Of a stretch of DNA of 64,000 bases, positions 5,914 to 58,209 are shown piece by piece (position 1 is the stretch's first letter; every line of letters starts with the position of its first letter). The DNA is from Escherichia phage Cyrano. Location: sequence record OV696614, one strand, 5' to 3'. Under the pieces are notes generated by a model, which did not search any database, was not told the DNA's origin, and saw only the letters and a program-made list of their open reading frames with translations. Position numbers and translations under genes: made by a program.

Positions 5914-6187
5914 TAAAGAATTATGGCGCTTGTTGAGGAAGTCACTCCTCTTACGCACTTTGTTTTGCCATGCCGGCAGTTAGCTTCTGCCTTTGACTAT
6001 TCATGCGGCAACCCCGCATTTCGCCACAATGGGCAATTCACTTTTATGGAATAAACTGGCCGTTGTGTCGATTTAATTAGCATGGCCTTACCATGCTAAT
6101 TTATTCAACTTGTACAATCCTACAAATCTATCCACTCAGGCTTACACCGTCTTCGTTATTGTAGAAATGAGGATCATCAGCGTTGAA

Positions 6188-6403: not shown

Positions 6404-6732
6404 AGATATTACCTTCTTAATTTTGTGAGCCACATAGTGCGGCGAGAATTTGATCTGTATAGATTGGGACTTACTTAGGCACTTAAGGAGGAGACTCACG
6501 AAGAAGGGAAATCAGAAGATAACACTGAACTGAGACTGCTTTACTAAAACTGCTTACATAAGGTCTGTCTTGCAAACCAACGATGCTATTAACGCATACC
6601 CCTTCTTTTCATGCAACCTTTATTTTTCAAAGATAACTAATTTTTGTCACCATTGGTTTAGTAAACGTTAACGAACCAGACGATGCCAGACACCTTTACA
6701 GAGAACAGATGCCCGCCAATTGGCGGGCATCA

Positions 6733-16253: not shown

Positions 16254-17309
16254 CTATTTGCGAGTCTTTGCCTTGCGCAACTCTTCGAGAAGCGCCAGTT
16301 CTTCTTTACTCAACATGACCATTTTGCCTTCTTTTTCGTCAGGCACAACGTCGATAATGTCATCTTGATTCTCATCTGGGAGGCTATATTCCGTCTCATC
16401 ATTATCGATTTTTGTTGATATTTGTGCCTGGCGTAACTTTGGCCGCCTATAGTGGATGACGAAGTAGACCGAGTTTCCGCGCTTAACTTCCGTGTAATCG
16501 AGATATCCTATCTCTCGCAGCTGTTCCATAGCCTTTCTTACCGTCGCATTCTGAGTAATAGTGCGACTTGTCAGATTAAGTCTGGCGCGTAAACGGGCTA
16601 GTGATATTGGTGCCGGATCAGGCGGCAAACTTTCAATAAAAGTATAAAGCGCCTGAGCGGATTCTTTTCTTGAGAGTTCGTTTATAGCCCGGAGTTGCAG
16701 AAGAACCTTTTTGTCGAACTGGTAGAGTTCGAAAATCTTGGGATCTGCTTTCAGTTCGACCGTATCGTGCTTGACACTATATTTTGCCGTTTGCACAAGA
16801 TGCGTTACGTAAAACTCATCAGAGCCTTTGCTACGGAACGAGATGGTATTTGTGGCAATACGGCTTAGCGAACTGTCCAGGCGTTTGCGTAACTTCGCTG
16901 ATGACCTGGCGGTCGGAATGCCACACAGCCTTACAAACTCAACGAACGGCAACGTGACAGTATCGCCAACGACCTTGTGTTTGGCAAACGCGTGGATTAT
17001 TCCCACCCACGTTTTAAAGTCGTTATCCATATCAAGCCGAAGGCCAGAGATCCTTATGTCTTCGTACCCTTCGGCTTTTGCCAGAGACAGCTGTTTGAGT
17101 TCAGCAGAGGCATCCATAGAGACCATTTGCCCCTTTCTTCCTCTGGATGTCGATTTCAGCGTCGGAACGAAGAGGCCCAGACGCATCAAAGCAACAGGCT
17201 GAACAGTGTTATTAGTGTTAGGAACCAACGTAACAACTTCGCCTGTCTTTTTATCTGTTTCTGAAAATGCTTCAACGATCGCTATGTTTTTATTGCCGTT
17301 TTCGCTCAT
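16254..17309 (-). CDS. repA: iteron-binding replication initiator (RepA/Rep_3-like)
   Basis: 351 aa flanked on both sides by iteron arrays; C-terminal half has a winged-helix-like pattern typical of Rep_3 initiators (…ALYTFIESL…[12 protein letters not shown]…[19 protein letters not shown]…). Confidence 0.65.
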
Positions 17310-41387: not shown

Positions 41388-41524
41388 ACGCTACAAATCC
41401 TTCGGCATGAATAAATAAAGGCCATAAGTTGTGGCCTTAAATAAATTGTTTTCTACCTTTTCTTATTTGTGAAAATAACCAGCACTTGGTAGTGCTTATG
41501 TAACAGCAAAGAAGAGAAAAACAC

Positions 41525-44931: not shown

Positions 44932-45321
44932 ATGGGCTTCCCTTCTCCTGCGGCGGATTATGCTGAGAGCCGTATTTCTCTTGATCAGCAGATAATTAGA
45001 CATCCTTCAGCGACCTACTTCATGAGGGCAGCTGATAGTCATCATCGTGAGGGAATATTACAGGGTGCATTGCTGGTGGTCGATTCCTCACTTACCCCGG
45101 TTGATGGTTCTCTGCTTGTATGCGCTCTGGATGGGGAATATCGCGTAAAAAGATACCGGAAGTACCCACGTCAGCATCTGGAGGATTTAAGAACCGGTAA
45201 GAAGGAAGCATTGCCAAAGGATGACGATGGATGCACGGGCAGCAATGCCGTGTTTGGTGTGATCACTCACATTATCAACGACGCAAGAAGTGGCGAGTTT
45301 GATGATTGTCCCGTGATGTAG
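44932..45321 (+). CDS. humD: UmuD'-like protein (HumD-like, S24 LexA-type peptidase fold)
   Basis: Starts MGFPSPAADY..., i.e. at the position where UmuD is cleaved to UmuD'; HPSATYFMRA and VFGVITHII blocks match UmuD; in-frame stop 15 nt upstream; no umuC gene follows. Confidence 0.75.
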   Translation: MGFPSPAADYAESRISLDQQIIRHPSATYFMRAADSHHREGILQGALLVVDSSLTPVDGSLLVCALDGEYRVKRYRKYPRQHLEDLRTGKKEALPKDDDGCTGSNAVFGVITHIINDARSGEFDDCPVM

Positions 45322-46616: not shown

Positions 46617-48650
46617 ATGACCCAAGTCGCGAAGAAAATTCTGGTGACGTGCGCGCTGCCGTACGCTAACGGCTCAATCCACCTCGGCCATATGCTGGAG
46701 CACATCCAGGCTGATGTCTGGGTTCGTTACCAGCGAATGCGCGGCCACGAGGTTAATTTCATCTGTGCCGACGATGCCCACGGTACGCCGATCATGCTGA
46801 AAGCACAGCAGCTTGGTATCACACCGGAGCAGATGATTGGCGAAATGAGTCAGGAGCATCAGACTGATTTCGCAGGCTTTAACATCAGCTATGACAACTA
46901 TCACTCGACGCACAGCGAAGAGAACCGTCAGTTGTCTGAGCTTATCTATACTCGCCTGAAAGAGAACGGTTTTATTAAAAACCGCACTATCTCTCAGTTG
47001 TACGACCCGGAAAAAGGCATGTTCCTGCCGGATCGTTTTGTGAAAGGCACCTGCCCGAAATGTAAAGCGCCAGATCAATACGGCGATAACTGTGAAGTCT
47101 GCGGCGCAACATATAGCCCGACTGAATTGATCGAGCCGAAATCGGTGGTTTCTGGCGCTACCCCGGTAATGCGTGATTCCGAACACTTCTTCTTTGATCT
47201 GCCTTCTTTCAGCGAAATGTTGCAGGCATGGACCCGCAGCGGCGCGTTGCAGGAGCAGGTGGCAAACAAAATGCAGGAGTGGTTTGAATCTGGCCTGCAA
47301 CAGTGGGATATCTCCCGCGATGCGCCTTACTTCGGTTTTGAAATTCCGGACGCGCCGGGCAAATATTTCTACGTCTGGCTGGACGCGCCGATTGGCTACA
47401 TGGGTTCCTTCAAGAATCTGTGCGACAAGCGCGGCGATACCACCAGCTTCGATGAATACTGGAAGAAAGACTCCACCGCCGAGCTGTACCACTTCATCGG
47501 TAAAGATATTGTTTACTTCCACAGCCTGTTCTGGCCTGCCATGCTGGAAGGCAGCAACTTCCGCAAGCCGACCAACCTGTTTGTTCACGGCTATGTGACG
47601 GTGAACGGCGCGAAGATGTCCAAGTCTCGCGGCACCTTTATTAAAGCCAGCACCTGGCTGAATCATTTTGACGCTGACAGCCTGCGTTACTACTACACTG
47701 CGAAACTCTCTTCGCGCATTGATGATATCGATCTCAACCTGGAGGATTTCGTTCAGCGCGTGAATGCCGATATCGTGAACAAAGTGGTTAACCTGGCCTC
47801 CCGTAATGCAGGCTTTATCAACAAGCGTTTTGACGGCGTGCTGGCAAGCGAACTGGCTGACCCGCAACTGTACAAAACCTTTACTGATGCCGCTGAAGTG
47901 ATTGGCGAAGCATGGGAAAGCCGTGAATTTGGTAAAGCTATCCGTGAAATCATGGCATTGGCTGACCTGGCTAACCGCTATGTCGATGAACAGGCTCCGT
48001 GGGTGGTGGCGAAGCAGGAAGGACGCGATGCCGATCTGCAGGCGATTTGCTCTATGGGCATTAACCTGTTCCGCGTGCTGATGACGTACCTGAAGCCGGT
48101 ACTGCCGAAACTGACTGAACGTGCAGAAGCATTCCTGAATACAGAACTGACCTGGGATGGCATCCAGCAACCGTTGCTGGGCCATAAAGTGAATCCGTTC
48201 AAGGCACTGTATAACCGCATCGATATGAAGCAGGTTGAAGCACTGGTGGAAGCATCCAAAGAAGAAGTGAAAGCCACAGCCGCACCGGTAACTGGCCCAC
48301 TGGCTGACGACCCGATTCAGGAAACTATCACCTTTGACGACTTCGCCAAAGTTGACCTGCGCGTGGCGCTGATTGAAAACGCAGAGTTTGTAGAAGGTTC
48401 TGACAAACTGCTACGCCTGACGCTGGATCTCGGTGGTGAAAAGCGTAATGTCTTCTCAGGCATCCGTTCTGCTTATCCAGACCCACAGGCACTGATTGGT
48501 CGTCACACCATTATGGTGGCTAACCTGGCTCCGCGTAAAATGCGCTTCGGTATCTCCGAAGGCATGGTGATGGCTGCTGGCCCCGGCGGGAAAGATATCT
48601 TCCTGTTAAGCCCGGATGCTGGTGCTAAACCAGGCCACCAGGTTAAGTAA
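46617..48650 (+). CDS. metG: methionyl-tRNA synthetase
   Basis: 677 aa starting [26 protein letters not shown] (HIGH motif), KMSKS motif present, zinc knuckles CPKC...CEVC; near-identical to E. coli MetG by recall. Start set at ATG 46617, not the listed upstream 46488. Confidence 0.95.
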
Positions 48651-48672
48651 TTAAACAACCTCTCTTCGCAAT

Positions 48673-48696
48673 GCCCGGCAACACGCCGGGCATTTT
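48673..48696 (+). terminator. rho-independent terminator after metG
   Basis: Hairpin GCCCGGC-AACAC-GCCGGGC followed by ATTTT. Confidence 0.65.
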
Positions 48697-48811
48697 CATA
48701 TAGACACAATCCCTTCTGATTTACACAGTACCTAAAACAATTTGTTTTCTGCCTTTTGTTGATTGAGATAATAAGCCACATAAGAAAACAAATTGTTTCG
48801 GAGTGGTTGAA

Positions 48812-49111
48812 ATGTTGAACATTACCCAAGCCTACCAGGTGGCATTGATCAGTTCATCTCATACATCAGAGGAAGATGCTCGCCGATTCATGATCGCAAG
48901 CAATGAGCTGGATTGGGTTTCACAAATTGATGGCGGTTGTATTGTCCACGCCGGGTTACAGGATGATGTCTGGAAAGAGGACTTGCGTCGATATGGTATA
49001 TCCGAAGGCGCGATTGCTAACATTCAGAAAGTACTTGATGTAGGCTTTGACTCTGTACATTTTGATTGTGGTGCACCGGTCGTTGAAGGGCTTGAGTGCT
49101 GGAACTGGTAA
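48812..49111 (+). CDS. hypothetical protein
   Basis: ATG with GGAGTGG RBS, preceded by two copies of the AAAACAAnTTGTTT motif. Confidence 0.45.
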   Translation: MLNITQAYQVALISSSHTSEEDARRFMIASNELDWVSQIDGGCIVHAGLQDDVWKEDLRRYGISEGAIANIQKVLDVGFDSVHFDCGAPVVEGLECWNW

Positions 49112-49156
49112 CAGATATTAAAGCATTGGTAGTTTGTTTTTAGGATTATCAAAGAA

Positions 49157-49891
49157 ATGAAAAAGTTGAAAAGTTTAGAAATCCCTGGAACTGGTTATAA
49201 ATTCTTTATGGACAACGCGGAGTGTGCACCTAACGCGTTGGAAAAAATACAAAGTCTTATCAACAGCCTTACTGAAGAAGCGAAAGAACTGAAGAGCGAG
49301 GCGACAAAGGACAATACAGCTAAAATCCAATGCTTAAATCTCGTCTCTTATTGTTTATATCAAGTATCCAAAACACTGATTAAAGGCAATATCTATTACG
49401 ACGATGAAGACACCTCGACACCTGAAGAAAAAGATAGCGATGAAGAACTCTATGAAGATATCTCTACTAGTGCGGGTCACGCTGCCTTCGATGCTATGGG
49501 TGAATCGTCAGGCATCAGATCATTTGTTGAACAGAACAATTCGACAATAATGATTGAGTACTGTGAACAAACAAGCTCCAAGGCCATACATGTTCTTCAC
49601 GATGTTGCTGCAGGGGTTCGCTGTGAGGCTGAAGCGGTCAGAAAAGATGTATTTGGTGCAGACAGTAATACCGTGAAAGCGTTTATCAACAGTGCTCTGC
49701 TAAATTCTTACTCAAACCTTATAGTCAATGCGGCACTATGCGCAAATTCAGGTGAAGAACACATTGTCATAACTGAAACCAAACATGAGCATCAACAGTC
49801 ACCAACCATAGAAGAGGTAACTGCATTGGCTATCAAACAGGCGAGTGAAATTAGTGATGAAATTCTCTCTCTGCTAAACAAAACTAAGTAA
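49157..49891 (+). CDS. hypothetical protein, AT-rich gene
   Basis: 244-codon ORF with low GC and an acidic central segment; no recognisable motif. Confidence 0.45.
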   Translation: MKKLKSLEIPGTGYKFFMDNAECAPNALEKIQSLINSLTEEAKELKSEATKDNTAKIQCLNLVSYCLYQVSKTLIKGNIYYDDEDTSTPEEKDSDEELYEDISTSAGHAAFDAMGESSGIRSFVEQNNSTIMIEYCEQTSSKAIHVLHDVAAGVRCEAEAVRKDVFGADSNTVKAFINSALLNSYSNLIVNAALCANSGEEHIVITETKHEHQQSPTIEEVTALAIKQASEISDEILSLLNKTK

Positions 49892-49994
49892 AACATTGAT
49901 AATGGCGGTCACAATTTGATTCTTTTCTATAAGAATCCGTTGATCGCCACTACTCCCCTTCCATACCCGCAACCACATCCTTAAATATCAATAA

Positions 49995-50790
49995 GTTATA
50001 GTTGTTTATACAATCAAGAAAACAACTGAATAACAGATCAACGAAACGTCAACGCTTTCACCCGATTTGGCCTAAAAAATTGACGTTTTCACACATCACT
50101 GCTTATACCCGTAATTCTACGCAGCAGACAGCACCACAGCGTTCAATTTTCACCACAGACGACTCAACACACTACCAACAAAAACACACGCTCAAAATCG
50201 CTCCCGTTGCGTTACATAACCATATAAACAACTTATTTTCAGGCATAACAAAACAACTAAATAACACATATGCCATTACCCAAAACAACCAACCTCTTTA
50301 TGGCAGGCTACCGAAAAGACCCACCTCTTCTTCCCAGGCTACCGGACAACCAACCTAACTTTCACAGGCAATCCGAAAACATTCATACGCGCGATACCCA
50401 CGACACGCCATTACCCAAACAGCGAAGAAACACCAGAATCACTGAAACCCCAACGAAGCCTGTAACCGCAAGGTTTCTCTCAATCCCAAAAGACACGAAA
50501 CATAACAATCACGGGAAACGCCATTACCCAATACACGAATAACTACAAAAGCCTTTCACACACTCCAGACAAACAACTCAAACACAATAACGAAAGGAAT
50601 CGCCCACCTGCCATTACTCCATACACGGAGAAGAACAATCACCAAAACGACGAGAACACCCCATAGAAGAACCACCGCAAAACTAACGAAACCACATACA
50701 CCGACAGAGAAAACAACACACCCAATTCACCAACAGAAATAGTCGCCGTATAGAACGTTCTGGAAGGAGTGAGCATTAACGCCTATAGAG
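49995..50790. repeat. G-depleted CA-rich non-coding segment with GCCATTACCCAA direct repeats
   Basis: About 800 nt with very few G on the plus strand; GCCATTAC(C/T)CAA(A/T)ACA recurs at about 50271, 50408, 50519 and 50600; CAGGCTACCG recurs at 50303 and 50336. Confidence 0.55.
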
Positions 50791-50939
50791 AGGTTGAAAC
50801 AGATAAAACACGAAGAAAACACAACATGTATAGCGAACAAGACAGGTATGTATAAGTGGGGAGGGAAGGAGGGGTGTCGCCTCCTTTTTCGTATTTATTC
50901 AACTCCTGATTTTATCCCCCGTAACACCCCTACGGTCAG

Positions 50940-51100
50940 CCTTCGGTCCATACAGGGAAAAGGCTGCATCCCGCTACAGAAACGGCTGGGTTGCCTTCGG
51001 GGAACGGCTGGAGGTTTTCAGGGAAACGGTCGAGTTGCCTGTGTGGATTTCGGGAAAAGGCTCGATGCCGGTTCAGGAACGGCGGCGTACCGGTATAGCG
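50940..51100. repeat. array of GGAAACGGC-type direct repeats
   Basis: CAGGGAAAAGGCTGC, CAGAAACGGCTGG, GGGGAACGGCTGG, CAGGGAAACGGTCG, CGGGAAAAGGCTCG and CAGGAACGGCGGCG at roughly 20-25 bp spacing; a similar array lies at 54604-54720. Confidence 0.55.
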
Positions 51101-51425
51101 TGAGGGAGAGTTGCGGCTACCCACCTGTAATGTGCGGGAAGAAGAGAGGCGCTCACGTGCAGGCGAACTTACTTACCGCAGGATTCCCTCTGAATGCCCA
51201 ACTACAGCGTAATTGTGCCAGACAGCCAACGGGCCACAATCGATTTCAGTAGGTTTTCGGGGAGATGATTATTCTGCCCACCAGCCACCTTCGGCCACTA
51301 AATCAGAATAATGTAAAAAGTGTACTCGGTACTGAACCTGAAAACTCACTGCCAAAACCACATTCACCGGAATAAAATCCTTTTTCGCCTTTGCGTTATT
51401 GCGATAATAACACCATCAAGAAAAC

Positions 51426-51776
51426 ATGTTGTTTAAGGATTGCTTTATGTTTGCAAATATCGACATCAACCAAATTAAGAAATTGACTCAAAAAGAGTTT
51501 GACCAGTTTTATGAGTTAGAAGGTTGGTCTTCCACTCTGATTAATTCAAGATGGGTGCTGGAACTGATGACTCGTGATGACGCACCTGCTTTGATGATCA
51601 GCGACCTGGGTGAAGATGCTGACTTTATGGATATGAGCGAATTTTGTGTGGACACATACAACCGCAGCCAGAAGTACTACTTCACATGCGATAGCGAAAA
51701 TGACGTGATTTCTAAGGTCTATCTTCACCTCGTCCAGCATTGGGACGTTCAGGAGTTTCTTGAGGTATTCGCGTAA
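51426..51776 (+). CDS. hypothetical protein (small-gene cassette)
   Basis: 116-codon ORF preceded by CGATAATAACACCATCAAGAAAACATGTTGTTT promoter-like motif. Confidence 0.45.
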   Translation: MLFKDCFMFANIDINQIKKLTQKEFDQFYELEGWSSTLINSRWVLELMTRDDAPALMISDLGEDADFMDMSEFCVDTYNRSQKYYFTCDSENDVISKVYLHLVQHWDVQEFLEVFA

Positions 51777-51930
51777 TCACAACCAAAGCCAGCAATGCTG
51801 GCTTAACTTAATCTGTAGCCGCAGGGAAGAACCTGCATATCGCTCATGCACCTGATCAATATGCTTTGTAGCCGTTTTCTTACTGGTATTATTTACGCCA
51901 TTGAGAAAACAAGTTGTTTACGGAGTTGTG

Positions 51931-52242
51931 ATGAAAAAATCATTGGTTCTTGGTCTGGACAAAGACCAGAAGAGAAAAGAGAAGCCTGCGCTGGTTGCTC
52001 AATTAACTTTGCTGGACATCGTTGCCAATGGAACCTCTATTCGTCTGTTCCGTGAAACAGCGGTGTCTTTCGATAAAAACACCTTTACTCGTTATGTAAT
52101 GAATGTTCGTCGCCAGCGTGGAAAAGGCTGGGTGGCATTTCAAAGAATGTGGCCGGAACATCAGCTCGAACTGGCTTTGATGGAAGTTAACCGCGTGGCC
52201 CAGCAAGAGATTCAGAGAGCATCAGTGATGGCAATAGCCTGA
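51931..52242 (+). CDS. hypothetical protein (small-gene cassette)
   Basis: Start set at ATG 51931 (GGAG RBS) after the AAAACAAGTTGTTT motif; followed by a terminator hairpin at 52277. Confidence 0.45.
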   Translation: MKKSLVLGLDKDQKRKEKPALVAQLTLLDIVANGTSIRLFRETAVSFDKNTFTRYVMNVRRQRGKGWVAFQRMWPEHQLELALMEVNRVAQQEIQRASVMAIA

Positions 52243-52276
52243 TAATGTGCAAGTGGTAATTAGTCGACAGTACGAC

Positions 52277-52307
52277 AGCCCCGCCATCCTTACGGGGCTT
52301 TTTTTGT
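52277..52307 (+). terminator. rho-independent terminator
   Basis: Hairpin CCCCG-CCATCCTTA-CGGGG followed by CTTTTTTT. Confidence 0.55.
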
Positions 52308-52369
52308 ATTGTAAGTACATACTTACGATCATAGAATATAAAAATAACCAAAACACTACGGAGAGTGAA

Positions 52370-52765
52370 ATGACCGTTAAACGCGAAAAACTGACAGTTG
52401 ATGTTTACTATGCCTCTGAAACCGCCGAAGGTAAGAATGTGGCAAAAATCACCGTTGTTACGTACAACACCGAAACTGGCGCCGAAGTCCAGGCCAGTAC
52501 GATCGTGCGTAAAGGTGATGCCTCCGGCGGCGAGTACGCGACTCAATACCAGTCTATTTTCGATGCAACTGACCCGCTGCTGCTGAAAATCGAGAACTAC
52601 TTCCGCCAGGTTGATGAAGAGGTGTTTGAAACCATGATGAATATGGTTAACACCGTATTCGCCTCCAGCCTGAATACCAACACTACCTGGATTGGTCAGT
52701 ACGGCCTGCGCATTACCTCTGGCATTCCTGCCGACACCTTAATCCCTGAAAGCGTATTCGCTTAA
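52370..52765 (+). CDS. hypothetical protein (small-gene cassette)
   Basis: Start set at ATG 52370 with GGAGAG RBS; followed by terminator hairpin AATGGCGCG-TAAA-CCGCGCCATT. Confidence 0.45.
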   Translation: MTVKREKLTVDVYYASETAEGKNVAKITVVTYNTETGAEVQASTIVRKGDASGGEYATQYQSIFDATDPLLLKIENYFRQVDEEVFETMMNMVNTVFASSLNTNTTWIGQYGLRITSGIPADTLIPESVFA

Positions 52766-52882
52766 TCCTCTTTAAATGGCGCGTAAACCGCGCCATTTTA
52801 TTAAGCCCGATAACAATTTGTTTTCTGCCTTATCTGATTTGTGAAAATGATTTCACTGAAGCAACTTAATAAGGAAACCATC

Positions 52883-53257
52883 ATGGGACTTGATATCTAT
52901 ATCGAGACACAGCCTAAAAACGATCTGAATAACGAGGCATCCAGAAAGCGGGTTGCTTACTTCCGTAAGTTCAATGCGCTCGTTGGGTGGATGGAGCGCA
53001 ACGTAGGTGAAGTCGAAAATTGTGAGCTTTTAGAATTAACGATGAATGACATTTGTTTTCTGAAGGCTCATTTGATGCACATAAACGAAAGTAATTGCGA
53101 AGAGTACTTGCCTACCCGGGAAGGTTTTTTCTTCGGCAGTCAGGAGTACGATGAAGGTTACTGGCATGATGTGGGGGAGTTGAAAGAGCTTGTGGAAGAT
53201 CTGATTAAGAACCACGACTTTCACAATAACAGACTGACCTTCTGCGCCTGGTGGTAA
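52883..53257 (+). CDS. hypothetical protein (small-gene cassette)
   Basis: Start set at ATG 52883 (AAGGAAACC RBS) because the listed start lies inside the conserved upstream motif. Confidence 0.45.
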   Translation: MGLDIYIETQPKNDLNNEASRKRVAYFRKFNALVGWMERNVGEVENCELLELTMNDICFLKAHLMHINESNCEEYLPTREGFFFGSQEYDEGYWHDVGELKELVEDLIKNHDFHNNRLTFCAWW

Positions 53258-53407
53258 ATATGGGCGATTTCAAGAAACGCCTGAAGGAGAGAGCCGAGAT
53301 GGTCAGAAAGCGAAACGCCTCTTCTGTCATCAGATACGCAAGGCAGTTTAGTCGCAACAACAAATCAGTTGAGGAAAAGATCCTTAGCGTAATCGGGCGA
53401 TAATTAT

Positions 53408-53433
53408 TAAGGCCACCAGCATTGGTGGTCTTA
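53408..53433. terminator. hairpin element, one of a near-identical pair flanking the 53587 gene
   Basis: AAGGCCACCAGCATTGGTGGTCTT here and AAGGCCACCAATGCTGGTGGCCTT at 53880-53906, each followed by AAATGAC. Confidence 0.5.
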
Positions 53434-53586
53434 AATGACTTTTAATAACCGAAGGTTAGTTTGAAACCTGGCTATCAACTTCCAGAACCTTTCTTGTGTA
53501 TTCAGCCTGTATTAACTTCTTTTATGCCTTATCTACACTGCGATAATTACACCAACAAGAAAACAACATGTTTACGCAGTGAGGAT

Positions 53587-53874
53587 ATGCTCATGACTGA
53601 TTTCACCATTACCCCTAAAGCACAAAATGTATTCCTTGAATCATGGCTGGACTTGCCGGAAACAGAACAGCAAGAAATGGATCATGTGGATTATGACGAG
53701 CAGGTAAGCACGCGATTCTTCCACTTTGAGGGATGCGTTTACGACATTGCCGACTTCATGCGAGATGACCGCTTCCCTGAATGGCACGCAAGCTATCCAC
53801 TAAACGCCTTTGCCATGCTGATGATCCGTGTGGATGATTCAGGGGATACCATCGACATCGGTCTGCTCCACTAA
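53587..53874 (+). CDS. hypothetical acidic protein (small-gene cassette)
   Basis: Start set at ATG 53587 after the GATAATTACACCAACAAGAAAACAACATGTTT motif; bracketed by the hairpin pair. Confidence 0.45.
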   Translation: MLMTDFTITPKAQNVFLESWLDLPETEQQEMDHVDYDEQVSTRFFHFEGCVYDIADFMRDDRFPEWHASYPLNAFAMLMIRVDDSGDTIDIGLLH

Positions 53875-54078
53875 AGATTAAGGCCACCAATGCTGGTGGC
53901 CTTAAATGACCATCCTGTTTCCCGCAGGCTAAAAACACCAACCTCTTACCTCCAGGCAACCGACAAACCCACCTGTTCCCGTCCGGCTACCGCAACTTTC
54001 CACTTTGACGCCTTATTCGTACAACGATAATTAACACCAACAAGAAAACAATTTGTTATTTACGATAAGGAATTAATC

Positions 54079-54561
54079 ATGAATTTTATCGCTACTGTAA
54101 ACGCACCCGCACATGGCAATATCGCTGTAACGTTCTCTGACATTGAAAAACGAGTACTTGGTGCATGGCGCGACAATGAGACGGTAGAACTGTCAGCACA
54201 AGAAAAATGCATTATTGCACGCGACATCATTGGCAATCGTCGTTACTCGCGGGTATTTGAGAAAGCATATGTGGTAAATTCTGGATTCGGAACGTTCGTC
54301 TTTCCGGTGCGCTCCGGGCGATTCTGCCAGTCCAAGCTGATTGAGTTCGCTACGCAGATTTCTGTCTGGATTAAAACTCAATCGTCGTTCAAATTTTCCG
54401 ACGATGAAGCAGTATCGCAGGGGATGCGGATCGCCAACAATGCGATTAAATGCAAAAACATTACGTATACCGCTGGCGTTGATACATGGAAACTGTTTTG
54501 CGCTAACTTTATGCTGAATGTATACGCAAGCAACCGCATCCACATCCTTGATGGCGTGTAA
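54079..54561 (+). CDS. hypothetical protein (small-gene cassette)
   Basis: 160-codon ORF preceded by CGATAATTAACACCAACAAGAAAACAATTTGTT motif. Confidence 0.45.
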   Translation: MNFIATVNAPAHGNIAVTFSDIEKRVLGAWRDNETVELSAQEKCIIARDIIGNRRYSRVFEKAYVVNSGFGTFVFPVRSGRFCQSKLIEFATQISVWIKTQSSFKFSDDEAVSQGMRIANNAIKCKNITYTAGVDTWKLFCANFMLNVYASNRIHILDGV

Positions 54562-55149
54562 CTGAGAAGAGGGCCAGAAACGGCCCTTTCTCTACAGCCA
54601 CCAGCTGCCGCAGGGAAATTTTCAGAAACGGCGAGGAACGTATTCATGAGCCGACGGGAAACGGCCAGGATTTTTTCGGGAAACGGCTGCATTCGCCTTT
54701 ATGTAGAAAAAACATCGGGAAGCTGGTGGAATCCAACCAGCGGTTGTCGGACAGGTGAGCGGGGAAAATCATGATGACTTTCGTCGCCTGAGACATCCAG
54801 ATTTCTTTCGTAGCGTAATCACATACGTGATTAAGTGGTGTGATTATGTGAAAAATCACGCGCACATAATACGCGAGCGGATACGGAACAAAACAAAATG
54901 CCGATCCGCGCCGACAATTAAACGCGGATCACATAGCAAGAATAAAAGCCAATGATTAACCATACACCATAACGCAATATAACGCGCTTAAATCGCGTTA
55001 ATGCGCTAAGTAATGGGTATGTACTGGTAAGGATATAAAAGCGCGTCTATGGCGTTATTTTGGCGCTTATTTTTATGTTGTTGGAGTGAGTCAAAGACAA
55101 TAAAAAAGCGCCATCATTGGCGCGTTATGGTGGGAGTATTGGAAACGAA

Positions 55150-55172
55150 AAAAGCGCCCATAGTGGGCGCTC
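55150..55172. terminator. bidirectional hairpin, one of an identical pair flanking the 55177-55407 gene
   Basis: AAAAGCGCCCATAGTGGGCGC occurs here and at 55425-55447, each with A-tract on one side and T-rich sequence on the other. Confidence 0.5.
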
Positions 55173-55176
55173 GATT

Positions 55177-55407
55177 TTATTTGTGTAAACTAATTTTGAA
55201 TCCCATTTCTACAAACGCTTTCAACATTAAAAATATATCAGCGTCATTCACGTCTGCTTTTTTTCGCTCCTGGTCGCTCAGTAAGTCAATTTTGCGCGTC
55301 GTTTCATCGATAAACTCGACTGCGCGCCCAGCGTAACCAGCGATCCCAGCGATGCGATTAACAAAATATTCATTGCGCACGTTAACGCCAGCGATAAGAA
55401 TAAACAT
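55177..55407 (-). CDS. hypothetical small protein
   Basis: 76-codon ORF exactly bracketed by the identical hairpins; no recognisable motif. Confidence 0.3.
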   Translation of the reverse strand: MFILIAGVNVRNEYFVNRIAGIAGYAGRAVEFIDETTRKIDLLSDQERKKADVNDADIFLMLKAFVEMGFKISLHK

Positions 55408-55454
55408 GATTAAGCTCCTTAAAAGCGCCCATAGTGGGCGCCAGATTCCATTAA

Positions 55455-56114
55455 TTACGCTTTGAAAGCATCAGCCAGATAGTTATAGAAATCATTTTTA
55501 ATAAAGCGATATTGCTGCGTACCAGCTTTTGCGCTTCCCATTCCTTTGACTTTCTCAACAAGTCCAAGACGTTCGCAAAGATTGATAAGCTGGTTGGCTT
55601 GAGTGTATCCTGCGTCTAATTTTATTTCGTTGGCTTTTTTCGCTTCATTCATTAAATCGAAAACAGCGCCATTTGTGAACGTCTCGATCTCGTCGTTAAT
55701 CATATCGATTAATGCGAATACACGAGATCCGGACATATCAGCGACGGAATAAACACACTTTCCAGCTTTAATGGATTTAACCAGATAAACCAGTTTTTCC
55801 AGAGAATAACTATTAGTCATTGCATCACGGAAAAATACTTCTGGCGCTTGTTTGCTTGCTTTGATCGCATAGTAGAAAACAGAGCACAATTTTTCGTCTT
55901 CTACTGCGTTTACGACGTTGTTGATGAAGTAAGCAAGTTTGGTGGTCGCAGCTTGCATATTTGCTTTGTCTGCTTTTGTGTGCGTACCATTTTTATAATG
56001 TTCGTTATATGTTTGAGTTGCCAGATCTGCTTTTTCGCGCAGCTCGTCGGATACAATGGCAGCAGCTTCAATGATGGACTTTTTAGAAATGATAATGTTA
56101 GTCATGATGGACAT
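55455..56114 (-). CDS. hypothetical protein
   Basis: 219-codon ORF; C-terminal segment may be HTH-like but is not diagnostic. Confidence 0.45.
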   Translation of the reverse strand: MSIMTNIIISKKSIIEAAAIVSDELREKADLATQTYNEHYKNGTHTKADKANMQAATTKLAYFINNVVNAVEDEKLCSVFYYAIKASKQAPEVFFRDAMTNSYSLEKLVYLVKSIKAGKCVYSVADMSGSRVFALIDMINDEIETFTNGAVFDLMNEAKKANEIKLDAGYTQANQLINLCERLGLVEKVKGMGSAKAGTQQYRFIKNDFYNYLADAFKA

Positions 56115-56400
56115 CCTTACGAAAAATTAAAATGAATTTATTTTTTACTGTCGTTAGCTAGCTCGCTTTCGACGAGTTCAATTATCGATACGTGAAAAAA
56201 GATTGCAAGTATTTTTTTTAAATTTTCTGCAGGGATGAAAGTCCTAGAAATAAAAGCGAGATCGTCGAAGGTGTTCCCTAAATAAATAATCAATTCGGGC
56301 TTTTAACCTTATATATTTATACAGAGTGACATTGAAAGAGTTTTAAATGAATGGCATGTAAAATAATAACCGGGCTTAGCCGGTTATTACCCTTATAGAT

Positions 56401-56922
56401 TTAAAATGGAAGGATTCGTTCAACCCAATCGAAGAAAACAAGTATTTTTCTGCCGTCTTCTAATTTAAGAGTGACCTGGCAAGCATCAACGCCTCTTGAC
56501 ACCCCTTCTATTTCACGACCGTCTGTCATGTAGACCCTTATAGATTGGTCGTTTTGATAAGCCTTGCGACATATCGCAAAAAAGTCACGGCGTGATGGCT
56601 GATTGTCAACATAGTCTGGATGTATTGTTAGCCTACCTTTGAACTCGCGAGCAATGCCATCGATTACACCTGATTCAATTGTGCTAATGCGCTCAAGTGG
56701 GAGTCTTATACGATTTTCTTTATCATATGGAAGCGGGCATAAATCTAGCTTATTGCGGGAAGGCATTGTCCCCTGAACGTACATGCAAAACACCTGACCG
56801 TCTTCAAGCGTGACTCTTACAGGAATGTTGTTCTTCCGCCAGAACATAAGTATGTTTTCAGCATGTTCGTAGTCTCGCGGCCAGACTTCAGCCGGTATGC
56901 CGTAGGTGATGTCTTTAACCAT
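56401..56922 (-). CDS. hypothetical protein
   Basis: 173-codon ORF in an AT-rich stretch. Confidence 0.45.
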   Translation of the reverse strand: MVKDITYGIPAEVWPRDYEHAENILMFWRKNNIPVRVTLEDGQVFCMYVQGTMPSRNKLDLCPLPYDKENRIRLPLERISTIESGVIDGIAREFKGRLTIHPDYVDNQPSRRDFFAICRKAYQNDQSIRVYMTDGREIEGVSRGVDACQVTLKLEDGRKILVFFDWVERILPF

Positions 56923-57024
56923 AGTCTACCTTTTTAAGTCTTTTTTGGTCATTATATACATCTCTATGATGCGTAGACAGACTAACCGTACATTCCACCA
57001 AAAATTGATTATGGAATAAGTTTC

Positions 57025-57825
57025 ATGAAGAATGGGGTGAATAAAAAATACTCATTAGCATTGTTAATAGCGGCTTTACTATTAACAGGTTGTGATTCTG
57101 ATGAAGAGCGAGCCATAGATCTAGTTGAAAAGGATATTCGCTCTACACTGCTAGATCCTGATGCTGGTCGGTTCACGAATATGCGAGCTATTCAGTTAGG
57201 TGAAAATAGCTATTCATATATGGTATGTGGAGAGGTGAATGGCAAAAACGTCTTGAACGCCTATACAGGTGCGACCGCATTCAATGCGCACATCTTTGAT
57301 GTTCGTGAACGTAACCCGATTGTATTCGTTACAATGGATAAAAGTGCCAACTCGGCAAGAGAACGATTACGTTTTGAACGCCAAAATCTAGCATGTAAAG
57401 AAAACGGTGTGAAACTTTATCTGGAAAACGAATCTAAAATCAGGAAGGAAAAAGAGAAAATAGATGATTTAAAAAAAACTCCATTAGGTCAGGCTGTGTT
57501 TGATGCAGCAAGTGATTCGACATATGTGAGTAGAGAGTTGGGCGAATCGAGAGGTGTTAGTGAAGTGTATGCAAGAGAAAATGATAAATATGCTCTTGTT
57601 AGCGTCACCAATTATGACACTCCTGACTTTTACAAATTTAGGAAAAAAGACAACGGTGAACTAGAACCTGTTAGGGGACTGTCCTATACCGGCTATCCAT
57701 TCGCGGTTACACTGTGCCATTCTGAACAAACAGATTATGACAAATGTATAACAGAAGAAGAAATCAAGTTGCTTCGAGACGAAAAGAATAAGCTCGATGA
57801 TTTTGTCGTGCCACCAGAAGAATAA
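57025..57825 (+). CDS. lipoprotein of unknown function
   Basis: Signal peptide ending in lipobox LLTGC; AT-rich gene. Confidence 0.5.
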   Translation: MKNGVNKKYSLALLIAALLLTGCDSDEERAIDLVEKDIRSTLLDPDAGRFTNMRAIQLGENSYSYMVCGEVNGKNVLNAYTGATAFNAHIFDVRERNPIVFVTMDKSANSARERLRFERQNLACKENGVKLYLENESKIRKEKEKIDDLKKTPLGQAVFDAASDSTYVSRELGESRGVSEVYARENDKYALVSVTNYDTPDFYKFRKKDNGELEPVRGLSYTGYPFAVTLCHSEQTDYDKCITEEEIKLLRDEKNKLDDFVVPPEE

Positions 57826-58209
57826 CATATACAAAATATTTAATTGCTGTAAAATTTAATCGTTCAGACATAGGGAAAGCCCGACGCCCTCGACAAATCT
57901 TTTTGGTATTGTCGAGGGCGTGTTTCAGATATGCATCCTATTGAACTCTTCAGATTTATAGGTAGATAGCGTTAATTAGCGTTTTTGTTCTTCTCTTTTT
58001 TGCTAATTTCATCACATGCAATATCATCTACTATATTTCTTAGGTCACACGTTTTTATAAATTGTCGCATATATCCTCCGAATTTCTTCGGAGGCGAAGC
58101 CTACAAATATCATTTAGCCTATCAAGATCTTTTTCAGCCGAAGGTATATACATTCAAAAATGTGATGAATGTCACATGCAGGTGCTCTCATACACCTGCA
58201 TGTAGACTA

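What the first reader, a model, noticed from the sequence alone, without database searches (positions are those of the whole stretch)
51400..55450. Cassette-like organisation of small genes, each with its own promoter motif and bracketed by repeated hairpins
Five to six small genes (86-160 aa, no recognisable domains) each carry the conserved promoter-like block upstream and a hairpin downstream. Two hairpin sequences recur as near-identical copies flanking single genes (AAGGCCACCAGCATTGGTGG at 53408 and 53880; AAAAGCGCCCATAGTGGGCGC at 55150 and 55425). This modular arrangement resembles accessory or anti-defence gene arrays in phages and may be a site of cassette exchange.
Basis: partly seen in the sequence, partly recalled or inferred. 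Interest (0 to 1): 0.5.

Follow-up and report, generated by a model that had tools for sequence, protein, structure and literature searches.

The report
Modular small-gene array in phage-plasmid
A run of small genes of unknown function in an SSU5-type phage-plasmid of E. coli is built from self-contained promoter–gene–hairpin units that are gained, lost and swapped between relatives at those regulatory sequences, and the shared "promoter motif" is the element's genome-wide promoter-plus-operator, not something special to this array.

Summary
The window is an SSU5-type phage-plasmid, almost certainly pLF82/"Cyrano" of E. coli LF82. Seven small + strand genes (47-160 aa, no Pfam, NCBIfam or PADLOC match) lie at 51447-54561. 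Four carry a ~55-nt promoter block, one a variant of it, one a different sigma-70 promoter, and one is coupled to its neighbour. All units end in stable hairpins. Two hairpins each occur exactly twice, flanking g5 and g7.

The block is an extended -10 promoter plus a 13-bp palindrome, AAACAA-N-TTGTTT. It occurs at about 15 promoters across the element, including nrdB, parA and the first gene of the virion-gene block. It is best read as the operator of an unidentified global regulator. Published RNA-seq shows these genes near background in lysogens.

Comparison with 12 relatives and PLSDB counts shows unit-wise turnover:
- g5 is present in about 45% of Escherichia-type plasmids and is lost exactly between its hairpin copies.
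- g4/g4b sits inside a two-operator promoter.
- g2-g3 allele replacement has breakpoints at the promoter block and at the terminator.
- g7 and a 204-nt gene alternate between terminator copies.

The closest analogues are T4-type PeSL cassettes and lambdoid morons. It is not integron-like. An anti-defence role is untested.

The parts
50957..51090 (+). Left cluster of six 22-bp-periodic direct repeats (cRGRAAMGGCtg) inside a conserved non-coding stretch; brackets the array
   Evidence: positions 50957, 50979, 51001, 51023, 51054, 51076; the cluster is in the same place in the six relatives scanned; D4, D7, D8
51379..51446 (+). g1 promoter/operator module: GCCTTT..TGCGATAAT (extended -10), CACCATCAAGA, operator AAACATGTTGTTT at 51422, then RBS
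   Evidence: (D1, D2)
51447..51776 (+). g1, 109 aa, acidic (net -13), phrog_7645; found only in the Escherichia/Shigella-type relatives
51786..51804 (+). Hairpin after g1 (GCCAGCAATGCTGGC), related to the g5 hairpin; no clear T-run
   Evidence: D16; dG -12.4, z -4.3
51864..51930 (+). g2 promoter/operator module (CCGTTTTC..TGGTATTAT..AGAAAACAAGTTGTTTACGGAG); its core is invariant in E. coli, pHCM2 and Klebsiella
51931..52242 (+). g2, 103 aa, basic (pI 10.5), phrog_5125; core gene; allele replaced (75% aa) in CP079776 and E. fergusonii
52277..52306 (+). Intrinsic terminator after g2 (GCCCCG..CGGGGC + T7)
   Evidence: dG -16.8, z -3.7
52309..52337 (+). g3's own sigma-70-like promoter TTGTAA-17-TAGAAT, without operator
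52370..52765 (+). g3, 131 aa, phrog_2473; core gene; allele replaced (57% aa) in CP079776 and E. fergusonii
52774..52798 (+). Terminator after g3 (AAATGGCGCG..CGCGCCATTT); conserved in all relatives; right breakpoint of the g2-g3 replacement lies just upstream
52809..52882 (+). g4 module: operator in inverted orientation upstream of the core (TAACAATTTGTTTTCT-GCCTTAT-N7-TGTGAAAAT), i.e. the O1 half of the ancestral two-operator g5 promoter
   Evidence: (D5, D10, I4, I5)
52883..53403 (+). g4 (124 aa, acidic) and the translationally coupled g4b (47 aa, basic); variable unit, g4b in Escherichia-type only
53407..53434 (+). Hairpin copy 1 (TTAAGGCCACC-AGCATT-GGTGGTCTTAA)
   Evidence: (D6, I1)
53518..53592 (+). 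g5 module (GCCTTATCTACACTGCGATAAT..CAAGA-AAACAACATGTTT), the O2 half of the ancestral promoter
53593..53874 (+). g5, 93 aa, very acidic (net -15), phrog_1845; core in other genera but present in only about 45% of Escherichia-type plasmids
53878..53905 (+). Hairpin copy 2 (TTAAGGCCACC-AATGCT-GGTGGCCTTAA); the native g5 hairpin in all relatives; loop reverse-complemented relative to copy 1
54003..54078 (+). g6 promoter/operator module
54079..54561 (+). g6, 160 aa, phrog_1641; core gene; confident AF2 model (pLDDT 91) with no structural neighbour
54562..54597 (+). Terminator-like hairpin after g6
   Evidence: dG -18.9, z -4.3
54625..54692 (+). Right cluster of three 22-bp-type repeats (same motif as 50957-51090)
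   Evidence: (D8)
55152..55172 (-). Terminator H, copy 1 (GCGCCCACTATGGGCGC + T-run on the - strand), downstream of g7
   Evidence: (D9)
55177..55407 (-). g7, 76 aa, phrog_1585; variable unit without its own promoter (13 nt from H to its ATG); absent in SSU5 and Cronobacter
55423..55443 (-). Terminator H, copy 2, downstream of g8; in relatives a 204-nt gene sits between it and g7
   Evidence: (D9)
55455..56114 (-). g8, 219 aa, phrog_1513; core gene whose transcript would read into H/g7

Best explanation
The region is an early/accessory module of an SSU5-type phage-plasmid, built from small autonomous transcription units.

Anatomy of a full unit, seen intact in front of g5 in pHCM2, SSU5 and Cronobacter:
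- the upstream gene's terminator;
- operator O1;
- a GCCTTAT element;
- an extended -10 promoter (TGnGATAAT);
- a conserved CACCAACAAGA start region;
- operator O2;
- Shine-Dalgarno sequence, ORF and hairpin.

O1 and O2 are copies of an imperfect palindrome, AGAAAACAA-N-TTGTTT, placed in opposite orientation. Their better halves face the core promoter, and their centres lie about 51 bp apart.

The same promoter/operator is used at about 15 promoters throughout the element. I infer that it is the DNA binding site of one dimeric regulator, not yet identified, that keeps these promoters off in the plasmid-prophage state and releases them together on induction or infection.

The promoter blocks and terminator hairpins are the only stretches that stay nearly identical between diverged relatives. 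They therefore serve as short homology patches. Recombination or slippage between them inserts, deletes and replaces single units. This leaves duplicated hairpins or split promoters as scars.

Shown here: the anatomy, the conservation, the dispersal of the site, the indel and replacement junctions, and (from published RNA-seq) silence in lysogens. Inferred: promoter activity, repressor binding, the recombination mechanism and early timing. The function of the encoded proteins is unknown.
For: Identity: 10 consecutive gene coordinates equal Cyrano coordinates minus 44379, and 44379 + 64000 = 108379, the plasmid length I recall for pLF82 (PMC9928086, S1 Table). Close relatives are 105-114 kb non-mobilizable IncFIB plasmids and phages CMS-2020a and PhiR41_1.

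Module and operator:
- Four 55-nt copies of the block.
- The palindrome is enriched, 19 matches against 4.3 expected.
- 12 sites lie at 11 intergenic positions in the window, 10 of them directly upstream of + strand genes, with 5 inside 51.4-54.1 kb.
- It is also upstream of nrdB (25947) and, in PhiR41_1, upstream of parA, of a gene next to the primase gene, and (doubled) of the first gene of the virion-gene block.
- It is conserved at orthologous promoters in all 12 relatives while the flanks diverge.
- The half-site sequence is conserved without compensatory change, and the leaders do not fold better than shuffles (z +0.6 to -0.8). This favours a DNA site over an RNA structure.
- O1 lies upstream of the -10 and so outside the mRNA leader.

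Repression: LB-overnight normalised counts are g1 12.8, g2 12.2, g3 17.0, g4 5.7, g5 6.7, g6 25.5, g7 5.0 and g8 5.9, against a background of 9.8 and a moron cut-off of 49.

Turnover at the modules:
- PhiR41_1 lacks exactly the 471-bp g5 unit and has one hairpin where the window has two.
- g5 is found in 102 Escherichia-type PLSDB records, against 225 for g6.
- g5 is polymorphic within both g2/g3-allele lineages.
- g4/g4b sits between O1 and O2 of the ancestral g5 promoter.
- The g2-g3 replacement has breakpoints at the g2 block and at the g3 3' end/terminator.
- Between copies of terminator H lie either nothing, g7, the 204-nt gene, or both. Among roughly 225 Escherichia/Shigella-type records, g7 is in 208 and the 204-nt gene in 125.
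Against: - No transcript ends or protein-DNA binding were measured. The simple sigma-70 scan does not call the block, because its -35 is poor. Low RNA levels could therefore reflect weak promoters rather than repression.
- The intergenic region of the XRE-type putative immunity repressor (CYRAN_45 equivalent) has no copy of the palindrome, so the regulator is unidentified.
- The core genes g2, g3, g5 and g6 are stable across genera, and only about 15 protein families follow the module in about 130 loci. Turnover is modest compared with T4 hyperplastic regions.
- The unit is not uniform. In Klebsiella, g4 was inserted as a bare ORF that forms an operon with g5. g7 lacks a promoter.
- Junctions at conserved sequence are what ordinary homologous recombination between diverged genomes would give anyway. 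A special role for the hairpins is not demonstrated.
Confidence: 0.65

Rival explanations
1. The conserved block acts at the RNA level. It would be a shared 5'-leader recognised by an RNA-binding protein, for example the FljA-like/Sm-like protein encoded about 2 kb away at 56401-56922, or a leader hairpin controlling translation or stability. It would not be a DNA operator.
For: In g1, g2, g5 and g6 the palindrome lies between the -10 and the Shine-Dalgarno sequence, so it would be transcribed. The neighbouring gene d1 is a full-length match to PF03614, 'repressor of phase-1 flagellin', with E 1e-80 and a weak Hfq-like signal. From my own knowledge, FljA binds the fliC mRNA leader.
Against: - O1 copies, and the only copy at g4 and at 41439, lie upstream of the -10, outside the leader.
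- The leaders fold no better than shuffled sequence (z +0.6 to -0.8).
- The helix would be 5-6 A-U-rich pairs.
- Variants (TAACA, TGTTA, AAATA) are not compensated.
- A symmetric sequence with a free central base is typical of a site for a dimeric DNA-binding protein.
Confidence: 0.12
2. The hairpins are dedicated recombination sites (integron attC-like or other hairpin-recognised sites) used by a site-specific recombinase of the element to capture and excise gene cassettes.
For: - Identical hairpins flank single genes: g5, and g7 or the 204-nt gene.
- The g5 unit is lost exactly between its copies.
- The loop of the g5 hairpin is found in both orientations among relatives, showing that the inverted-repeat arms themselves undergo exchange.
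- The element encodes a tyrosine integrase (CYRAN_44).
Against: - There is no RYYYAAC...GTTRRRY pair within 40-150 nt anywhere in 51001-56200, on either strand.
- The hairpins are 19-28 nt perfect stems, and several have T-runs, i.e. they are ordinary terminators.
- The units carry their own promoters.
- Other junctions lie in promoters or at a TAAATATG stop/start overlap rather than at hairpins.
- The integrase gene lies just upstream of the window's first base, about 53 kb from the array measured through the window, and is not adjacent to it.
Confidence: 0.08
3. Nothing special is present. This is a conventional, vertically inherited block of early genes with ordinary promoters and terminators. 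The duplicated hairpins are chance by-products of a few old indels.
For: g2, g3, g5 and g6 keep their order across four or more genera. In Klebsiella part of the array is an operon. The pool of genes behind the module is small.
Against: - g5, g4/g4b, g7 and the 204-nt gene are all polymorphic among plasmids that are >=95% identical elsewhere.
- g5 and the 204-nt gene show patterns that need more than one event.
- There is an abrupt 55-75% to about 100% identity switch at unit borders.
- Each duplicated hairpin is unique to the flanks of one variable unit.
Confidence: 0.15

Closest known systems
PeSL (promoter-early stem-loop) mobile regulatory cassettes of T4-type phages (Arbiol et al. 2010, PMC2839356; Comeau et al. 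2014, PMC4122927)
   Same: A repeated intergenic motif combining a host-type promoter with a terminator stem-loop. It sits in front of small genes of unknown function. Insertions, deletions and replacements between close relatives are bounded by the motifs (searches compared).
   Different: - The host element is a temperate siphovirus-type phage-plasmid, not a lytic T4-type myovirus.
- The promoter is an extended -10 type with a weak -35.
- The promoter carries one or two copies of a palindromic operator, so the units look repressible.
- The stem-loop is separate, 10-110 nt upstream of the promoter rather than inside it.
- The motif is also used at core promoters.
- The gene pool is small.
- Mini-circles were not tested.
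Morons of lambdoid phages (gene with its own promoter and terminator inserted between two genes; Hendrix/Juhala concept, from my own knowledge; term used for Cyrano in PMC9928086)
   Same: Autonomous promoter-gene-terminator units that are present in some relatives and absent in others at the same position.
   Different: Morons are defined by expression from the repressed prophage. Here only g4b exceeds the authors' moron cut-off, and the rest are at background in lysogens. The units share the element's own regulated promoter rather than foreign signals.
Multi-operator immunity regulon of phage-plasmid P1 (C1 repressor with many dispersed operators; from my own knowledge)
   Same: One short operator repeated at many dispersed promoters of a phage-plasmid, including accessory, replication/partition and virion-gene operons. 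The controlled genes are silent in the plasmid-prophage.
   Different: The operator sequence is unrelated and palindromic, whereas P1's is asymmetric. The binding protein is unknown. No copy was found at the putative immunity repressor gene.
Integron gene cassettes
   Same: Single genes bracketed by imperfectly repeated hairpin-forming sequences; arrays of small ORFs of unknown function.
   Different: No attC core sites and no adjacent IntI/attI. The cassettes have their own promoters. The hairpins are terminators.

Membership tests
PeSL-type regulatory cassettes (T4-type phages) | Repeated intergenic motif containing a sigma-70-type early promoter upstream of small ORFans | tested here: met
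   4 + 1 copies in the array and at least 6 more in the window. The promoter is an extended -10 type (TGnGATAAT). Activity is inferred from sequence only.
PeSL-type regulatory cassettes (T4-type phages) | Stable stem-loop (terminator/attenuator) forming one composite motif with the promoter, within or overlapping it | tested here: inconclusive
   Stable hairpins precede every promoter but lie 10-110 nt upstream, not between or over the -35/-10 boxes as described in PMC2839356.
PeSL-type regulatory cassettes (T4-type phages) | Indels and replacements between close relatives bounded by the motifs | tested here: met
   g5 unit, g4/g4b, g2-g3 allele swap, g7 and the 204-nt gene; PLSDB counts.
PeSL-type regulatory cassettes (T4-type phages) | Formation of excised mini-circles by exchange between neighbouring motifs | not testable with these tools
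   Needs PCR or sequencing of induced cultures or virions.
Morons | Gene flanked by its own promoter and terminator, present or absent between otherwise collinear relatives | tested here: met
   g5 unit, and g1 and g4/g4b.
Morons | Expressed from the repressed prophage | tested here: not met
   Published RNA-seq of the LF82 lysogen gives g1-g8 values of 5-25 against a background of 9.8 and a cut-off of 49. Only g4b (57.9) passes (PMC9928086 S1 Table).
Integron gene cassettes | attC site with inverse core RYYYAAC and core GTTRRRY flanking an imperfect hairpin of about 55-140 nt | tested here: not met
   No such pair on either strand of 51001-56200. The hairpins are 19-28 nt perfect stems.
Integron gene cassettes | Promoterless cassettes next to intI/attI/Pc | tested here: not met
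   The units carry their own promoter blocks. The neighbouring genes have no integrase domain. The element's integrase gene lies outside the window.
P1-like multi-operator immunity regulon | The same operator at many dispersed promoters of the element | tested here: met
   12 sites at 11 intergenic positions in the window, plus at least 3 promoters in the rest of a relative's genome.
P1-like multi-operator immunity regulon | Operator bound by the lysogeny repressor; genes derepressed on induction | not testable with these tools
   Only indirect evidence: the genes are silent in lysogens, and no palindrome lies at the putative repressor gene.
Known anti-defence proteins (e.g. ArdA, Ocr, KlcA, Acr families) | Sequence or fold similarity to a characterised inhibitor | tested here: not met
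   [not shown]

The most novel reading that the evidence does not exclude
Three linked claims.
1. AAACAA-N-TTGTTT is the operator of the still-unidentified master regulator of SSU5-type phage-plasmids (pHCM2, pMT1, pLF82 and hundreds of clinical Enterobacterales plasmids). It would define a P1-like immunity regulon of about 15 promoters.
2. The promoter/operator-plus-terminator modules double as portable recombination linkers. They let the element swap small early genes, some of which (the acidic g1, g4 and g5) would be new inhibitors of host defences.
3. The two conserved clusters of 22-bp repeats that bracket the array would be a binding platform for a further, unknown protein acting on this region.
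Probability: 0.3. Interest if true: 0.6.

Novelty: new variant of a known kind. Interest (0 to 1): 0.42.

Why it matters
SSU5-type phage-plasmids are common in clinical E. coli, Klebsiella, Salmonella Typhi (pHCM2), Shigella and Yersinia pestis (pMT1). I found no description of their regulation in the searched literature.

Three things follow if this reading holds:
- A single operator shared by about 15 promoters gives a direct handle for finding the master regulator and for defining the early regulon.
- Regulatory modules that act as recombination junctions would explain how these otherwise conserved elements vary their small-gene content. That would extend the PeSL idea from lytic T4-type phages to temperate phage-plasmids.
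- Recognised anti-defence genes are rare in this group (10.1101/2025.09.12.675607). The variable acidic proteins g1, g4 and g5 are therefore reasonable candidates to screen, but that remains a hypothesis.

Tried and rejected
- Rfam scan of 48000-58000 at E <= 1: no match.
- RNA folding of the four leaders: no better than shuffles, so the leader-hairpin idea was set aside.
- attC-type core search: nothing.
- Simple sigma-70 scan: does not call the blocks, only the g3 promoter. I read the blocks as extended -10 promoters.
- Function of the proteins:
  - Pfam, PHROGs, PADLOC and NCBIfam gave nothing informative.
  - PDB sequence searches for g6 and g8, and a g2 profile search, were empty.
  - The g5 AF2 model has pLDDT 58, so it was not searched.
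  - afdb50 was unavailable.
- g2 as the regulator: it is basic and conserved, and its promoter block is the most conserved one. However, it has no HTH or other DNA-binding signal. It remains a candidate only.
- XRE-type putative repressor (CYRAN_45 equivalent in PhiR41_1): its divergent intergenic region lacks the palindrome.
- The 22-bp repeats as RepA iterons: the Rep_3 initiator gene is 34 kb away at 16254-17309, and no such repeats lie near it.
- Direct retrieval of Cyrano/pLF82 records failed. The identity rests on coordinates in the paper's table.
- A 2026 preprint on SSU5-type heteroresistance promoters could not be read.

Full report
**What the sequence is.** Window 51400-55450 matches 730 PLSDB plasmids, mostly non-mobilizable; the nine I inspected are 95-114 kb and seven are typed IncFIB. 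They come from Escherichia, Klebsiella, Enterobacter, Yersinia, Salmonella and others. It also matches phages CMS-2020a, PhiR41_1, several Klebsiella phage-plasmids and, weakly, SSU5. This is the SSU5/pHCM2/pMT1 phage-plasmid group. [quoted passage not shown] The window is therefore almost certainly the last 64 kb of pLF82. That record could not be retrieved for a direct check.

**Check of the observation.** The + strand carries g1 (51447-51776, 109 aa), g2 (51931-52242, 103 aa), g3 (52370-52765, 131 aa), g4 (52883-53257, 124 aa), g4b (53260-53403, 47 aa, start overlapping the g4 stop), g5 (53593-53874, 93 aa) and g6 (54079-54561, 160 aa). The - strand carries g7 (55177-55407, 76 aa) and g8 (55455-56114, 219 aa). 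None matches Pfam, NCBIfam or PADLOC, and all belong to PHROGs of unknown function.

A 55-nt block recurs four times, at 51379, 51864, 53518 and 54003. g4 has a variant of it. g3 has a different sigma-70-like promoter. g4b has none. Every unit ends in a hairpin of -12 to -20 kcal/mol. z is -3.7 to -5 for the hairpins after g1, g2, g3, g4b, g5, g6 and g7, and -1.7 for the copy after g8. Each occurs exactly twice in 64 kb, against 0.25 and 0.07 expected.

**What the promoter block is.** Aligned, the block reads GCCTTAT - about 11 nt - TGnGATAAT - CACCAACAAGA - AAACAAnTTGTTT - ACGGAG - ATG. That is an extended -10 promoter followed by a 13-bp palindrome and the ribosome-binding site.

- The palindrome AAACANNNTGTTT has 19 matches at <=1 mismatch in the window, against 4.3 expected (0 of 100 shuffles reach 19).
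- Twelve of these lie at 11 intergenic positions, and 10 of those positions are directly upstream of + strand genes: 14216, 25947 (upstream of a ribonucleotide reductase small chain), 36170, 36899, 41439, 48735/48786, 51422, 51907, 52811, 53561 and 54046.
- In the rest of a relative's genome it also precedes parA, a gene next to the primase gene, and (doubled) the first gene of the virion-gene block.

So the motif is the element's general promoter/operator. The array is simply its densest cluster, with 5 sites in 2.7 kb.

The site is asymmetric, with a strong half AGAAAACA and a weaker half TGTTT. In pHCM2, SSU5 and Cronobacter the g5 promoter has two copies, O1 and O2, in opposite orientation. 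Their strong halves face the core promoter and their centres are about 51 bp apart.

Four points favour a DNA operator over an RNA element:
- The sites are conserved at orthologous promoters in all 12 relatives while flanking sequence and coding sequence diverge.
- Variants are not compensated.
- The leaders fold no better than shuffles.
- O1 lies outside the transcribed leader.

**Expression.** In the published LF82 RNA-seq the array genes are at background in LB-overnight lysogens. Values are g1 12.8, g2 12.2, g3 17.0, g4 5.7, g5 6.7, g6 25.5, g7 5.0 and g8 5.9, with a median background of 9.8 and a moron cut-off of 49. Only g4b (57.9) passes. The operator-controlled genes elsewhere that I checked in the table (CYRAN_85, 87, 93 and 101) are equally low. 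This fits repression in the plasmid-prophage state.

The regulator is not identified. The intergenic region of the XRE-type putative repressor has no copy of the palindrome. g2, which is basic and conserved, shows no DNA-binding signature.

**Comparative test of cassette exchange.** I fetched 12 relatives and mapped the window's proteins onto them.

- g2, g3, g5, g6 and g8 form a conserved core across the genera sampled, at 36-100% amino-acid identity. Yersinia pMT keeps only g5, g6 and g8.
- g1 and g4b occur only in Escherichia-type elements.
- g4 also occurs in some Klebsiella elements.
- g7 is missing in SSU5 and Cronobacter.
- A 204-nt gene absent from the window sits between g7 and g8 in four E. 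coli relatives. In SSU5 it occupies that slot alone, since g7 is absent.

*g5.* PhiR41_1 lacks exactly the 471-bp g5 unit and has a single hairpin where the window has two. CP081792, CP019013 and the E. fergusonii plasmid also lack g5 and keep the same g4b-to-g6 spacing (about 205 nt); I read the junction only in PhiR41_1 and E. fergusonii. In PLSDB, g6 is found at >=90% identity in 225 records but g5 in only 102. g5 presence differs within both g2/g3-allele lineages, so more than one event is needed.

*g4/g4b.* In pHCM2, SSU5, Cronobacter and one Klebsiella plasmid, g3 is followed by terminator-O1-core-O2-g5. In the window the g4/g4b unit sits between O1 and O2. O1 with a GCCTTAT...TGTGAAAAT core now drives g4. 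A second GCCTTAT...TGCGATAAT core with O2 drives g5. A copy of the g5 hairpin follows g4b. In another Klebsiella plasmid g4 is a bare ORF inserted behind the full module, abutting g5 with TAAatATG. This is the same junction that joins g4 to g4b in E. coli.

*g2-g3.* Against CP079776 and E. fergusonii, nucleotide identity is 95-99% through g1 and the g2 promoter block. It drops to about 75% in g2 and about 55% in g3. It returns abruptly to about 100% in the last ~20 codons of g3 and its terminator.

*- strand.* Terminator H (GCGCCCACTATGGGCGC plus a T-run) follows g8. Between it and a second copy lie nothing (Cronobacter), the 204-nt gene (SSU5), g7 (the window, Klebsiella) or both (several E. 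coli). Among roughly 225 Escherichia/Shigella-type records, g7 is in 208 and the 204-nt gene in 125. g7 has no promoter of its own.

**Mechanism proposed.**

- Shown: units are bounded by regulatory sequences. Those sequences are the best-conserved stretches. Junctions of gain, loss and replacement fall in them.
- Inferred: homologous exchange or slippage between these 20-55-bp patches, in co-resident or co-infecting relatives, shuffles units. Duplicated hairpins and split promoters are the footprints.

The hairpins are not integron attC sites. Several are ordinary intrinsic terminators. The junctions are heterogeneous: hairpin, promoter, or stop/start overlap. All this argues against a dedicated site-specific system.

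Turnover is moderate. Across about 130 loci from PLSDB and IMG/VR, the module precedes only about 15 small-protein families.

**Comparison with known systems.** The closest described system is the PeSL of T4-type phages, a promoter plus stem-loop motif in hyperplastic regions that mediates modular shuffling (PMC2839356). The differences here are:
- a temperate phage-plasmid host;
- an extended -10 promoter carrying operators;
- a stem-loop separate from the promoter;
- use of the same promoter at core operons;
- a small gene pool.

The units also fit the structural definition of morons, but not the expression criterion. The dispersed operator resembles the P1 C1 regulon in logic only.

I found no prior description of this module in the searchable literature. 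Recognised anti-defence genes are reported to be rare in SSU5-group elements (10.1101/2025.09.12.675607).

**Function of the proteins.** This remains unknown.
- g1, g4 and g5 are strongly acidic, with net charge -13, -11 and -15. That is compatible with inhibitor or mimic proteins but proves nothing.
- The g5 and g6 families are confined to SSU5-like elements.
- The g5 model is unreliable (pLDDT 58).
- The g6 model is confident (pLDDT 91) but has no neighbour in PDB or BFVD.

**Verdict.** However, the promoter motif is a genome-wide operator-bearing promoter rather than a cassette signature, part of the array is conserved core, and the anti-defence reading is untested. I rate it a new variant of a known kind (PeSL/moron-like modular units with a shared repressible promoter). 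Interest is moderate.

Noticed in passing
window 50957-51090 and 54625-54692: Two clusters of same-orientation direct repeats, cRGRAAMGGCtg. Six copies are spaced 22, 22, 22, 31 and 22 bp, and three are spaced 33 and 22 bp. They bracket the g1-g6 array. They are clustered nowhere else in the 64 kb, and both clusters are conserved in position in the E. coli, Klebsiella, pHCM2, SSU5 and Cronobacter relatives scanned. They look like iterons or a protein-binding array, but the Rep_3 initiator gene is 34 kb away.
   Followed up: partly
window 49892-51446: A 1.5-kb stretch with no convincing ORF is conserved at about 67% identity over about 1.2 kb in SSU5, pHCM2 and Cronobacter. It is strongly C>G and A>T skewed on the + strand at 49900-50800 (GC skew to -0.55, AT skew to +0.59). 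It carries its own copy of the operator (50226; perfect in relatives) with no gene behind it. There is no Rfam match. It may be a regulated non-coding transcript or a cis-acting region.
   Followed up: partly
window 56401-56922 (- strand): This gene encodes a full-length FljA-type 'repressor of phase-1 flagellin' (PF03614, E 1e-80, with a weak Hfq-like signal). It is conserved in all relatives. A phage-plasmid copy of a flagellin regulator could act on host motility or on element mRNAs.
   Followed up: no
window 53407-53434 and 53878-53905; L001 7984-8030, L006 5983-6030, L007 6045-6090, L008 6668-6715: The 6-nt loop of the GGCCACC-loop-GGTGGCC hairpin is found in both orientations among relatives (AATGCT/AGCATT, ACTGCT/AGCAGT, GATGCT/AGCATC). 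This flip-flop indicates exchange or template switching between the inverted-repeat arms.
   Followed up: partly
L010 about 6010-6020, L011 about 5134-5144, L012 about 6405-6415 (g5 promoter of pHCM2, SSU5, Cronobacter): The conserved GCCTTAT element of the g5 promoter reads TTATCCACA in these relatives, a perfect DnaA box. In the window it is TTATCTACA. Possibly coincidence, possibly host DnaA input.
   Followed up: no
window 53906-54010: The g5-g6 spacer is C-rich and G-poor. It is better conserved across genera than the neighbouring coding sequence (86% over 86 nt to pHCM2 and Cronobacter) and resembles part of the skewed non-coding region (50288-50356, 72%). It could be a Rho-utilisation-type or other cis element.
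   Followed up: no
window 54700-55150: The 615-nt gap between the convergent g6 and g7 is full of short inverted repeats and - strand terminator-like hairpins (54931-54902, 54875-54859, 55123-55108). It is conserved at 66-68% in SSU5 and pMT. No ORF and no Rfam hit.
   Followed up: no
[not shown]
   Followed up: partly
window 44932-45321: A stand-alone S24 (LexA/UmuD-like) peptidase gene has a normalised count of 148 in LF82 lysogens, about 15 times background. This is more than the putative repressor, yet it is not listed among the morons in the published table.
   Followed up: no
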